Below are positions 3,395 through 7,947 of a stretch of DNA of 64,000 bases, piece by piece. The notes under the pieces are model-generated. The model was not told where the DNA came from and did not search any database. It saw nothing but the letters and a program-made list of their open reading frames with translations. The stretch lies in assembly GCF_009914755.1 (NCBI RefSeq), contig NC_060932.1; one strand, written 5' to 3'. Source of the DNA: the human T2T-CHM13v2.0 reference genome, Homo sapiens. Each line of letters opens with the position of its first letter. Position 1 is the stretch's first letter. The translations under genes and the position numbers were made by a program.

Positions 3395-4052
3395 TACATG
3401 ACTCAGTTCCCTCTTCATAGCACTTGAGCCTTCTTCCAGGAATGGGAATCTGTCCATTTGCATTCCTGGAGTCACTGTCCCCTGTCTGAGGCGCTCTTCT
3501 CTCCCATCTCTGATACTGCGGTGACCACACCTGGGCTAGGGCTTCTCACTGCCGCTGGAGCAACACTTAAAAGTCAGAGTTCAGCGTGTGGCTTCCCTGC
3601 TCACCACTCGGTGGATGCCCTTGGGGATAAAGTCCAGCATGCTCATATGGTAGTGAGGCCCTCGCTGACCTCTGCCGTCCTCTGGAGTCACCTCTAATCT
3701 CGATCAGACACTCTGCTTTCGCTGCCCTGGGCTCCTGTGAGATTCTCAAAAGCGCCAGGCTCCTGGGGACTTCGAGTTTGCTCTTTCATAGCCAGGAACA
3801 CTCTTGGGCCCCTGAGCACCGGGCTAACCTCAGGCATCACTGTCTCTGGGAAACCCATGGCAGGCCCCCCCAGCTATGTGTTCCCACAGCACTTGCTGTT
3901 TCCTCTTCCCAGCTCTCTTCACACTGAAAACTACTATTATTTTCTTTCAACATCTTTGTTTTTCACTGAGACTTAGCTGAGTGGTTGGCGGTTAGCTTTC
4001 TCTATTAATGTTTGACTGACAAGCCTCCCTGATACATTTGTCCTTCTTAAAC

Positions 4053-5358: not shown

Positions 5359-5975
<617 letters not shown>

Positions 5976-6144
5976 TAGACTACATTTTTGTAATCCATCA
6001 TCCAGCGATAGGCATTTAGGCTCCTTCCACCTTCTGGCTGTTGTGAATGCTGCAGTGAACATGGATGTGCATATATTTCTTTGAGATTCTGCTTTTAATT
6101 CTTTTGGATGTATACCCGCAAGTGGGATTTACCACATACATTTT

Positions 6145-7515
6145 TTTTTTTCCTGATGTACATCCTGATGTTGATTTTACTGTTTGTGTTTTGAATACAC
6201 AAGCCGGGTCAGGAGCAGTGAGATTTGCCAGCACTCAGGGCCCTATGGGTCTTGGGCCAGCTCTGGATGGAGGGACAGCCCCACATGCCCAGAGCAAGGC
6301 CCCCCATTAAGGGACTGCAGCCACCTCCAGGGACTCCGCCCTCCACTCACCTGCTCCCAAATGCCAGAGGGAGCCTCCTTGCCCTCCCTCCCTGCCCACC
6401 ATCCCCTCAACCATCAGCCTGGCATTCAAAGCCTTTCCAAGTTCCACTTGAGTTTTCCTGCTCCCAAAGGTGCCCAGGCTCTGGGCAGGCCCAGCTCATA
6501 TCCCTGATGGTGGCACATTCTCTGGAGGACCCTCCTGTTCTCGGGTAGGGGCTATGCCCCACCTAGGTAGCCGCCCTATTTTGGATCCTGTAGGATCTCT
6601 AAAACCCAGCTCTGGCCCCAACTTTCTGTCTGGCCTGGAGGTTTCTCAGCCTCCTGAGAACTCTCCTGGGCCCTGGTCTGGGCAGAACCTGGAACTAAAC
6701 AAACAAGAGCCAGGGCAGCCAGGGTCTCTGCGTGGCTGAGCCCAGGGCTTGACCTCAGAGCTCCCCTGTCCAACAGGAGAGGAGTGTGCCTCCACCTTCC
6801 CTACTGCCCGCCCCTTTTTCAGGGTCTCAGGGCCTCTAGCCCTGTGGTGGTGCGGGGGTGCTGGGTACCCCAGGTAGAGCTAAGGTTATGGGGCTGTTGA
6901 GGAGTTGGCGTCCACCTGGAGTCTGTCCAGTGAGTTTAGGTCAACAGGTGTGCAGCCTGCCCTTCGAGGCTGAGCCACCTCCCAACAGCCTGTACAACTC
7001 GAGGGGCCTTTTGAGGGAGGGGCAGGCAGGCCCAATGGGTAGTCAACCCAAGGTGAACCCACCCACCATGGCCAGGGTTCCTCAGGTTGAGCCTCCAGTG
7101 GGTGAAACCTGGGAGTCCTCAACCTTACTGGCAGATGGGGCCGTTGACAAGAGGAGGTGGGTGAGGCCTCCACAGACTCCACCCTGTGGTATCACACAGC
7201 TGGCAGCCAATGGGAAGCAACCAGCCAGGAAGCCCCAGAGTTACCCTTGCTGGGTACCCTTGCTGGGGGACCTGGGCCATCCCAGTTTGTGAGAAGTGGC
7301 CGGAGGCAGTTAGGAGCCCACATTCAATCCAAGGCCGTCCACTGAGCCCCGTGTGACTCTGACCGGGCTGGGGGTGTCCATGTCCTCTCTGGACCTCAGT
7401 TCCTGTAAAATGGCCCACTGGCCAGATCGGCTGCCAGGCTGCTCACAGGCACATGGGCTGCACGTAACTCCGTGGGAAGAAGCCAACGCGCCCGCAGGAC
7501 CGGCCCTGCCTCCAA
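6145..7515 (-). pseudogene. 5'-truncated processed pseudogene (retrocopy) of GRAP: last 23 codons of the C-terminal SH3 domain + 3' UTR + poly(A)
   Basis: Minus strand 7514-7443 translates WRQGRSCGRVGFFPRSYVQPMCL*, vs recalled GRAP C-terminus WWRGRSCGRVGFFPRSYVQPVHL*; poly(T) 6141-6151; AGTAAA at 6181-6176; TSD TACCAC(A/G)TACATTTT at 6130-6144 and 7516-7530. Confidence 0.9.
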
Positions 7516-7947
7516 TACCACGTACATTTTAAACGACCTTATTCACCAAAGTCAGATTCATGCACTTTTTATAAAAAAACAGAATTGATATAATTTAAAT
7601 TATTCTGAACATTTAGTCTTTGACTTCCTACACAAAGCATCTTAAGCTTAGAGGATTCCATGCTTGAAGTTTTAGTATTTTCTAAGAGTATTTTCAAATA
7701 TATCTAAATTATATATTAAAATGCATTTGAAAACATTTTAAAGACTCTAAAGTGAGCGTTAATCTGAAGAGAAATATTCAGCATGTGAAAAAACAAATTT
7801 TGACTCTTTGAATAGTGTTCATTCGAAGCACAGCAAGAGCCTTAGAAGAAAGTAATGACAGATGTGGGCTTCCAAAAACTTATGAAACATTGTGAAAAAA
7901 TGTGAAAAACATCTAGTCATAGCTGTATCAACCACAGATGTGCTATT

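What the first reader, a model, noticed from the sequence alone, without database searches (positions are those of the whole stretch)
6130..7530. Hidden GRAP retrocopy (SH3 tail + 3' UTR) inserted antisense in the long PDGFRL intron
Seen: an abrupt GC-rich 1.37 kb block bounded by a 15-bp direct repeat with one CpG-type mismatch (TACCACATACATTTT 6130-6144 / TACCACGTACATTTT 7516-7530). It has a poly(T) at 6141-6151, an AGTAAA signal ~25 nt from the tail on the minus strand, and a TT|AAAA L1-endonuclease site at the right junction. Minus strand 7514-7443 reads WRQGRSCGRVGFFPRSYVQPMCL*, too short for the ORF track. Knowledge: this matches the SH3 GxFPxxYV signature and, from memory, the C-terminus of GRB2-related adaptor GRAP (WWRGRSCGRVGFFPRSYVQPVHL*). 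Inference: an L1-mediated, 5'-truncated retrocopy that is ~95% UTR, so protein-based pseudogene pipelines could miss it. PDGFRL pre-mRNA therefore contains ~1.3 kb antisense to the GRAP 3' UTR (possible trans dsRNA), and the copy can confound GRAP probes or read mapping. I do not know whether it is already annotated.
Basis: partly seen in the sequence, partly recalled or inferred. Interest (0 to 1): 0.8.

Follow-up and report, generated by a model that had tools for sequence, protein, structure and literature searches.

The report
Truncated GRAP retrocopy inside PDGFRL intron
This 1.37-kb GC-rich block is an old, dead, 5'-truncated L1-made copy of the end of the GRAP messenger RNA lying backwards in a PDGFRL intron, which is an ordinary kind of genomic fossil.

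Summary
Window 6150-7514 matches, collinearly and on the opposite strand, the last exon of a five-exon SH3-SH2-SH3 gene at G000:C17:18.97 Mb (93% identity). That gene's closest named relatives are all "GRB2-related adapter protein" (GRAP).

The copy starts 114 nt inside that exon. It keeps 23 codons plus the stop and about 1.29 kb of 3' UTR. It ends in an A-tail 24 nt after an AGTAAA signal, where the chr17 genomic sequence goes on differently. A 15-bp target-site duplication (14 of 15 identical) flanks it, at a TTTT|AAA nick site.

GRAPL is excluded as parent. The second chr17 copy holds only exons 1-3.

A second, longer GRAP retrocopy on chr1 has intron 4 spliced out, with its own A-tail, duplication and TT|AAAA site. 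So GRAP RNA was retroposed at least twice.

A search of the whole genome with a 217-aa GRAP protein finds the chr1 copy but not this one.

Divergence suggests an age of roughly 30-40 Myr (inference). There is no sign of coding capacity. The trans-dsRNA idea is untested. I could not check annotation beyond RefSeq. Low interest.

The parts
6130..6144 (.). Left copy of the 15-bp target-site duplication (TACCACATACATTTT). On the + strand its 3' TTTT is the primer end from which reverse transcription would have started.
   Evidence: (D9)
6145..6151 (-). Remnant of the poly(A) tail. It is 7 T on the + strand, or up to 11 if the TTTT of the duplication is counted.
   Evidence: homology to chr17 stops here, and the chr17 genomic sequence continues differently
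6152..7442 (-). Copy of the GRAP 3' UTR (1291 nt), collinear with chr17. Against chr17 there are three gap runs (of 1, 7 and 1 columns). Only the 1-nt gap in chr8 and the 7-nt gap in chr17 that overlap at columns 994-1000 net to a difference. Column 527 is gapped in both chr8 and chr17 and reflects an insertion in chr1.
6176..6181 (-). AGTAAA variant polyadenylation signal, 24 nt upstream of the tail. It is conserved in chr17 and in the chr1 copy.
7443..7514 (-). Last 23 codons plus the TGA stop of the C-terminal SH3 domain of GRAP (WRQGRSCGRVGFFPRSYVQPMCL*). Four residues differ from the chr17 exon (WWRGRSCGRVGFFPRSYVQPVHL*). The frame has no start codon.
7516..7530 (.). Right copy of the target-site duplication (TACCACGTACATTTT). 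It keeps the CpG that the left copy has lost.
7527..7533 (+). TTTT|AAA, the L1-endonuclease-type nick site of the uninterrupted target (TTT|AAAA on the minus strand).
   Evidence: That this motif is the L1 endonuclease consensus is established knowledge, recalled rather than tested.

Best explanation
Window 6145-7515 is a 5'-truncated processed pseudogene (retrocopy) of GRAP mRNA. It was made by L1 target-primed reverse transcription.

Inferred mechanism. The + strand of the then uninterrupted PDGFRL intron was nicked at ...ACATTTT|AAA. The T-rich 3' end annealed to the poly(A) tail of a GRAP transcript that had been cleaved about 24 nt after its AGTAAA signal. Reverse transcription ran about 1.36 kb and stopped 114 nt short of the 5' end of the last exon. 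A staggered second-strand break 15 bp away produced the duplication.

Result. The copy lies antisense to PDGFRL. It holds only 23 codons without a start, so it cannot make GRAP protein. It has since drifted as neutral DNA. About 4.3% of its sites carry changes private to it, and its CpG observed/expected ratio is 0.18.

Shown: the homology, the boundaries, the tail, the duplication, the identity of the parent gene and the exclusion of GRAPL. Inferred: the L1 machinery, the order of events, an age of about 30-40 Myr and the absence of function.
For: (1) Genome search. A search of the whole genome with 6145-7515 gave 3 candidates, and all 3 were scored. They were the window itself, C17:18968566-18969923 (93%, query 6-1370) and C1:208420139-208421494 (92%). 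BLAST of the fetched loci gave one collinear piece each: 1365 columns at 92.97%, and 1367 columns at 92.03%.

(2) Parent exon. In the three-way alignment chr17 shows intron sequence and a ...TTCTTGCAG| acceptor 114 nt upstream of where the chr8 homology begins. Downstream of the chr8 tail, chr17 continues with AATCTAATTTTCC..., which chr8 lacks.

(3) Name of the parent.
- The chr17 exon encodes a 61-residue SH3 tail.
- 119 proteins reached E <= 1e-10 among 125 candidates. Of the 30 best rows, 25 are named GRB2-related adapter protein or -like, 3 carry no name and 2 carry uninformative names. The best is 95% identical over the full length. The first row named otherwise (GRB2-like, a fish) is 50% identical.
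- Among solved structures the best match is the C-terminal SH3 of GRB2, and it is not identical.

(4) Gene structure. Marmot GRAP (P0003, 217 aa) maps to five minus-strand exons at C17:18994823-18969855, covering residues 1-31, 26-62, 59-100, 97-156 and 154-217. Exons 1-3 recur at C17:19061491-19072460. Exons 4 and 5 do not.

(5) Retroposition hallmarks. The tail, the AGTAAA signal, the 14-of-15 duplication and the TTTT|AAA site are all present.

(6) Sister copy. The chr1 copy joins exon 4 directly to exon 5. The 2070-bp intron between them has GT...AG ends on chr17. The chr1 copy has its own run of 17 A, its own duplication (AAAA)GTGCCACTGCAG and its own TT|AAAA site.
Against: The chr8 copy lies wholly within one exon, so it carries no exon-exon junction. 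Its RNA origin therefore rests on the tail, the poly(A) site, the duplication and the nick site.

The tail is short, with 7 unambiguous A.

I had no primate genomes, so no empty site was seen and the age is not anchored.

The protein database returned no full-length row 100% identical to the chr17 exon product. The name GRAP therefore comes from orthologues at 95% or lower identity and from the 17p11.2 position, not from a human record.

The high-copy repeat to the left ends within a few bases of the start of the duplication in 11 of 11 realigned copies. I read this as coincidence and cannot prove it.
Confidence: 0.96

Rival explanations
1. The block arrived by DNA-level duplication or transposition of the GRAP 3' end (segmental duplication, or gap-filling repair), not through RNA.
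For: The chr8 copy holds no splice junction. [quoted passage not shown] A partial duplicate of exons 1-3 lies nearby.
Against: Homology stops exactly at an A-run 24 nt after the AGTAAA signal, while the chr17 genomic sequence continues differently. A 15-bp duplication at a TTTT|AAA site flanks the block. The sister chr1 copy from the same gene is demonstrably spliced.
Confidence: 0.015
2. The parent is GRAPL or another SH3 adaptor gene (GRB2, GRAP2), not GRAP.
For: The 23-codon tail alone is too short to name. It scores below Pfam's cut-offs (SH3_2: 18.3 bits against 21.8; SH3_9: 17.4 against 30). It matches many SH3 domains in the PDB with similar weak scores.
Against: The 1.29-kb UTR has only one intron-bearing match in the genome, at C17:18.97 Mb. 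The second chr17 locus has exons 1-3 only. The GRB2 locus (C17:76.21 Mb) matches the chr1 copy's exon-4 part at only 73%, and it was not among the matches to the block. The matches at C22:40.43-40.44 Mb are 40-47% identical at protein level.
Confidence: 0.01
3. The copy has been put to use. One route is a 1.3-kb stretch of PDGFRL pre-mRNA that pairs with the GRAP 3' UTR in trans (dsRNA, RNA editing, small RNAs). Another is a GC-rich intronic regulatory element of PDGFRL. This rival concerns function, not origin.
For: Complementarity is physically there. There are 26 exact runs of 21 nt or more, the longest 53 nt, over 1.36 kb at 93% identity.
Against: The copy carries more private changes (58 of 1346 sites) than the chr1 copy (36) or the parent (28), so there is no sign of constraint. 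Its CpG observed/expected ratio of 0.18 resembles the chr1 copy's 0.17. No Rfam family matches inside the block; the 2 matches at E <= 1 both lie in the left flank. RefSeq's only functional element nearby (silencer 3547-3841, hub table) does not overlap it. I had no expression data.
Confidence: 0.03

Closest known systems
L1-mediated processed pseudogenes (retrocopies) of human mRNAs, in particular 5'-truncated copies that are mostly UTR
   Same: It is collinear with the 3' end of a mature mRNA. It has a poly(A) tail at the mRNA's cleavage site, a 15-bp target-site duplication and a TT|AAAA-type nick site. It is truncated at the 5' end, as many L1 insertions are. It lies antisense in the host intron.
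   Different: Nothing is different in kind. Only 72 of about 1364 nt are coding. A six-frame search with a GRAP protein therefore does not find it, and the RefSeq table supplied for this window has no row for it.
The second GRAP retrocopy at G000:C1:208419226-208421527 (L003 588-2889)
   Same: It has the same parent gene, the same AGTAAA signal and the same type of junctions (duplication plus TT|AAAA). It is 92% identical to the chr8 copy over the shared 1.36 kb.
   Different: The chr1 copy is about 2.3 kb. It begins in intron 3 (about 630 nt of intron retained), contains exon 4 spliced to exon 5, and was polyadenylated about 20 nt further downstream. It has fewer private changes (36 against 58 of 1346 sites), so it is probably younger.
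Pseudogene-derived antisense or small-RNA regulators of parent genes (for example pseudogene endo-siRNAs in mouse oocytes; recalled, not looked up here)
   Same: A transcribed sequence antisense to a parent mRNA exists in principle, because the copy lies antisense inside a transcribed intron.
   Different: Nothing here shows co-expression, duplex formation, small RNAs or sequence constraint. This is a resemblance in layout only.

Membership tests
L1-mediated processed pseudogene / retrocopy | Collinear homology to the mature transcript of a parent gene located elsewhere in the genome | tested here: met
   Window 6150-7514 against C17:18968566-18969923: one collinear piece, 92.97% over 1365 columns
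L1-mediated processed pseudogene / retrocopy | Introns of the parent are absent (an exon-exon junction is present) | tested here: inconclusive
   The copy starts 114 nt inside the last exon, so no junction can be present. The sister chr1 copy does show the exon 4-exon 5 junction.
L1-mediated processed pseudogene / retrocopy | An A-tail at the parent's polyadenylation site, downstream of a poly(A) signal and not encoded in the parent's genomic DNA | tested here: met
   There are 7-11 A, 24 nt after AGTAAA. chr17 reads AATCTAATTTTCC... at that point.
L1-mediated processed pseudogene / retrocopy | A target-site duplication directly flanking the insert | tested here: met
   15 bp, 14 of 15 identical, abutting the tail on one side and lying 1 nt from the end of homology on the other. 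Fixed-register chance is 4e-8.
L1-mediated processed pseudogene / retrocopy | An L1 endonuclease-type nick site (TTTT/AA on the primed strand) in the reconstructed target | tested here: met
   The + strand reads ...ACATTTT|AAACG at 7527-7533. The consensus itself is recalled knowledge.
L1-mediated processed pseudogene / retrocopy | An empty (unoccupied) orthologous site in an outgroup species | not testable with these tools
   No primate genomes were on hand. A paralogous empty site was sought and not found. The right flank is unique in the genome and matches none of 11 other copies of the left-flank repeat.
Derived from GRAP (GRB2-related adapter protein gene, 17p11.2) | The parent locus encodes the full SH3-SH2-SH3 GRAP protein | tested here: met
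   Five exons on C17 cover residues 1-217 of marmot GRAP at 86-93% identity. 25 of the 30 best database rows for the last exon's product are named GRB2-related adapter protein or -like.
Derived from GRAP (GRB2-related adapter protein gene, 17p11.2) | The parent is GRAP, not its partial duplicate GRAPL | tested here: met
   The duplicate at C17:19061491-19072460 matches exons 1-3 only. The block and the exon-4 region each have a single match on 17p. That the duplicate is the gene called GRAPL is recalled knowledge.
Functional retrogene | An intact open reading frame with a start codon, and signs of constraint | tested here: not met
   The frame is 31 codons from stop to stop with no Met. 4 of the 23 parent-derived residues are changed. 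The copy has the most private substitutions of the three sequences.

The most novel reading that the evidence does not exclude
PDGFRL pre-mRNA carries 1.3 kb complementary to the GRAP 3' UTR, so in cells that express both genes it could pair with GRAP mRNA in trans. This would give long imperfect dsRNA that is edited or processed into small RNAs and lowers GRAP output. That would be a host-intron-borne, UTR-only retrocopy acting as a natural antisense regulator of its parent. My evidence shows only that the complementarity exists (26 exact runs of 21 nt or more). It shows no constraint on the copy.
Probability: 0.02. Interest if true: 0.5.

Novelty: new member of a known kind. Interest (0 to 1): 0.12.

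Why it matters
It matters little biologically. It is one more neutral retrocopy fragment among the many in the human genome.

Its practical value is for annotation. The hub's RefSeq table for this window has no row for it. A six-frame search with a full GRAP protein missed it. Short probes or k-mers designed on the GRAP 3' UTR share 276 exact 25-mers with it, and 323 with the chr1 copy.

Together with the chr1 copy, it records two different GRAP poly(A) cleavage sites. The two copies also show that a 7-nt stretch was lost from the GRAP UTR after both had formed.

Tried and rejected
(1) Paralogous empty site. I asked whether the flanks belong to one repeat family whose other copies would show the uninterrupted target.
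- The left flank 5985-6129 is a high-copy repeat (1676 candidates, 40 scored, 76-85% identity).
- The right flank 7516-7760 is unique in the genome (1 candidate, itself).
- The right flank gave no hit against 11 other copies of the left repeat, even with 7-base words.
So this test cannot be made.

(2) Naming the left repeat. To me it looks like an old L1 ORF2 fragment (recalled).

(3) Dispersed repeat inside the block. I tested whether the stretch just after the stop codon (7330-7430) is a dispersed repeat. It had only 3 matches, the same three loci. That search skips very common words, so this is weak evidence.

(4) RNA families. The Rfam scan of 5900-7800 at E <= 1 gave 2 matches. Both lie in the Alu-like left flank (SRP-like at 5900-5974; mir-619 at 5937-6004). 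None lies inside the block.

(5) Literature.
- 'GRAP' with 'processed pseudogene', whole words: 1 paper, on mouse genomes, seen in the listing only.
- 'PDGFRL' with 'retrocopy': 0 papers.
- 'grap' with 'retrocop' as word starts: 232 papers, but 'grap' also matches 'graph', so the result is uninformative.
- The one supplementary file of PMC11295320 held as text has no occurrence of GRAP.
They may list the chr1 copy or this one.

(7) I did not fold or model anything. A 23-codon fragment without a start does not warrant it.

Full report
**What is in the sequence**

- A block at 6145-7515 has GC 0.597. The 985 bases to its left have 0.474 and the 1000 bases to its right have 0.396.
- The block is bracketed by TACCACATACATTTT (6130-6144) and TACCACGTACATTTT (7516-7530). 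These match at 14 of 15 positions, and the one difference is CA against CG.
- At a fixed register such a match has a chance of about 4e-8.
- Eleven T follow at 6141-6151.
- On the minus strand the only poly(A)-type hexamer in the block, AGTAAA, lies at 6181-6176, 24 nt before that tail.
- Minus strand 7514-7443 reads WRQGRSCGRVGFFPRSYVQPMCL and then a stop. It sits inside a 31-codon frame without a Met.
- That peptide scores only weakly as the last strands of an SH3 domain. SH3_2 gives 18.3 bits and SH3_9 gives 17.4 bits, both under Pfam's cut-offs. It matches many SH3 chains in the PDB at similar levels. The peptide alone cannot name a gene.

**Where it came from**

The genome that holds the window could be searched. 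The 1371-base block gave three candidates, and all three were scored:
- the window itself;
- G000:C17:18968566-18969923, 93% identity, same strand as the window's + strand;
- G000:C1:208420139-208421494, 92% identity, opposite strand.

BLAST of the fetched loci gave one collinear piece in each case. The three-way alignment in mRNA sense shows the anatomy.
- On chr17 the homologous stretch is preceded by a pyrimidine-rich tract and ...TTCTTGCAG|TCACCTGGGG. That is a splice acceptor opening an exon.
- The chr8 copy begins 114 nt inside that exon.
- At the other end, chr8 switches to an A-run where chr17 continues with AATCTAATTTTCC....

The homology therefore ends at a polyadenylation site, not at an arbitrary genomic point.

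**Naming the parent**

The chr17 exon encodes SPGACF...WWRGRSCGRVGFFPRSYVQPVHL followed by a stop, 61 residues in all.
- Against the large protein database, 119 proteins reached E <= 1e-10 among 125 candidates.
- Of the 30 best rows, 25 are named GRB2-related adapter protein or -like by their sources. Three have no name and two have uninformative names.
- The best rows are 95% identical over the full length (marmot, capuchin).
- The first row with a different name is a fish GRB2-like protein at 50% identity.
- No row with full coverage was 100% identical. The name therefore rests on orthologues, not on a human record.
- Among solved structures the closest is the C-terminal SH3 of GRB2. It is clearly not identical.

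The 217-residue marmot protein was searched back against the genome.
- It maps to five minus-strand exons between C17:18994823 and 18969855, covering residues 1-31, 26-62, 59-100, 97-156 and 154-217.
- Exons 1-3 occur a second time at C17:19061491-19072460. Exons 4 and 5 do not.
- From memory, that partial duplicate is GRAPL.

A paper places both GRAP and GRAPL in the repeat-rich 17p11.2 breakpoint region (passages of PMC4069034 read). GRAP, not GRAPL, is therefore the only possible parent in this assembly. GRB2 itself, at C17:76.21 Mb, matches at 73% or lower.

**A sister copy that shows the splice**

The chr1 match extends further 5' than the chr8 copy.
- It runs from about 630 nt before exon 4 (intron 3 sequence, 95.4% identical to chr17) through exon 4.
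- It then passes directly into exon 5.
- The 2070-bp intron that separates these exons on chr17 is missing. That intron has a GT donor and an AG acceptor.
- The copy ends in 17 A, about 20 nt downstream of the point where the chr8 tail begins.
- It is flanked by (AAAA)GTGCCACTGCAG on both sides, at an ATT|AAAAG site.

This is an independent retrocopy of a partly spliced or intron-initiated GRAP transcript. It shows that GRAP RNA entered the L1 pathway at least twice. Its different 5' end, tail position and duplication exclude its being a DNA copy of the chr8 insert, or the reverse.

**Mechanism**

The order of features on the + strand is: flank, TACCACATACATTTT, T-run, antisense UTR, antisense coding tail, TACCACGTACATTTT, then AAACG.... 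Target-primed reverse transcription predicts this order.
- A nick falls at TTTT|AAA.
- The T-rich 3' end primes on the poly(A) tail.
- cDNA synthesis stops early.
- The second break is staggered by 15 bp.

The L1 endonuclease consensus and this model are established knowledge. The steps themselves are inferred from the scars.

Because the copy lies inside one exon, it holds no exon junction. That defining feature of processed pseudogenes is therefore inconclusive here. The case rests on the tail at the poly(A) site, the duplication, the nick site and the spliced sister copy.

**Age and state**

These counts are over 1346 ungapped columns shared by the three sequences.

| Pattern | Sites |
|---|---|
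| chr8 alone differs | 58 |
| chr1 alone differs | 36 |
| chr17 alone differs | 28 |
| all three differ | 2 |

- Pairwise differences are 6.6% (chr8/chr17), 7.2% (chr8/chr1) and 4.9% (chr17/chr1).
- The chr8 branch includes any change in the parent between the two retropositions. The chr8 copy is therefore the older of the two, unless its locus mutates faster.
- From memory, human-lineage neutral divergence since the split from Old World monkeys is about 3%. On that basis the chr8 copy would be roughly 30-40 Myr old and the chr1 copy roughly 20-28 Myr. This is an inference with wide error. It is not anchored by an empty site, because no primate genomes were on hand.
- CpG observed/expected is 0.18 in the chr8 copy, 0.17 in the chr1 copy and 0.24 in the parent.
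- Both retrocopies keep 7 nt that chr17 lacks. The GRAP UTR therefore lost them after both copies had formed.
- Nothing suggests constraint on the chr8 copy.

- The UTR share is 1291 of 1363 non-tail bases, so '~95% UTR' is correct.
- The six-frame search with a full GRAP protein returned 61 matches at E <= 0.001, from 176 candidates of which 150 were scored. The chr1 copy was the best, at 2e-51. No match lay in this window. That supports the claim that protein-based pseudogene finders would miss this copy. It is one search, not a test of any published pipeline.
- The RefSeq table supplied by the hub has no row for the copy. I could not consult GENCODE, the UCSC retrogene track or retrocopy databases.
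- My literature searches found nothing on it.
- On cross-reaction, the chr8 copy and the GRAP UTR share 276 exact 25-mers and 9 exact 50-mers, and the longest exact run is 53 nt. Short probes could cross-hybridise. Reads of 100 nt or more would carry about 7 mismatches.
- The trans-dsRNA idea is physically possible (26 exact runs of 21 nt or more) but has no support beyond that.

**Surroundings**

- The stretch 5900-5974 gives a weak SRP-RNA-like Rfam match, as Alu elements do.
- The stretch 5985-6129 is a high-copy repeat (1676 candidates). In 10 of 11 realigned copies its similarity ends at window 6128-6129. In one it ends at 6138. This is at or just inside the start of the duplication.
- The right flank is unique in the genome.
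- I treat the coincidence of the repeat's end with the insertion point as chance. It is recorded as an open observation.

**Verdict**

The object is an ordinary 5'-truncated retrocopy that is mostly UTR: a new instance of a well-known kind. Its annotation status outside RefSeq is unknown, and no function is indicated. Interest is low.

Noticed in passing
L003 588-2889 (G000:C1:208419226-208421527, + strand): A second GRAP retrocopy of about 2.3 kb. It holds the last ~630 nt of intron 3, then exon 4 spliced to exon 5 and the 3' UTR. It has 17 A, the duplication (AAAA)GTGCCACTGCAG and a TT|AAAA site. It derives from a partly spliced or intron-initiated transcript. It has a 1-nt insertion in the SH3 coding part and a 10-nt deletion in the UTR.
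   Followed up: partly
G000:C17:19061491-19072460 (not in the window): A second copy of GRAP exons 1-3 lies about 78 kb from GRAP on chr17. Its scores against marmot GRAP are identical to those of the GRAP exons, and it lacks exons 4-5. It is presumably GRAPL (name recalled).
   Followed up: partly
L002 about 2200 (G000:C17 about 18969265) against window about 6855: Both retrocopies keep about 7 nt (CCCC(T)GC) that the present GRAP 3' UTR lacks. GRAP therefore lost them after both copies had formed.
   Followed up: no
window 6152 against L003 2871 (chr17 L002 about 1506 and 1484): The two retrocopies record two GRAP poly(A) cleavage sites about 20 nt apart. Both lie downstream of the same AGTAAA signal.
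   Followed up: no
window 5985-6129: A high-copy interspersed repeat (1676 candidates in the genome). Its similarity to other copies stops at or within a few bases of the start of the target-site duplication. To me it looks like an old L1 ORF2 fragment (recalled), but Pfam found nothing in its open frame. The end of the repeat falls at the insertion point, and I have no explanation for this beyond chance.
   Followed up: partly
window 5900-5974 (minus strand): A weak Rfam match to metazoan SRP RNA (27.4 bits, below the gathering score of 70), as expected of an Alu element. It lies inside the stretch 5453-5982 that NCBI masks as repeat.
   Followed up: no
window 7242-7267: An exact tandem duplication of 13 nt (TACCCTTGCTGGG, twice). 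The alignment shows near-identical counterparts in the chr17 and chr1 sequences, so it was inherited from the GRAP UTR.
   Followed up: no
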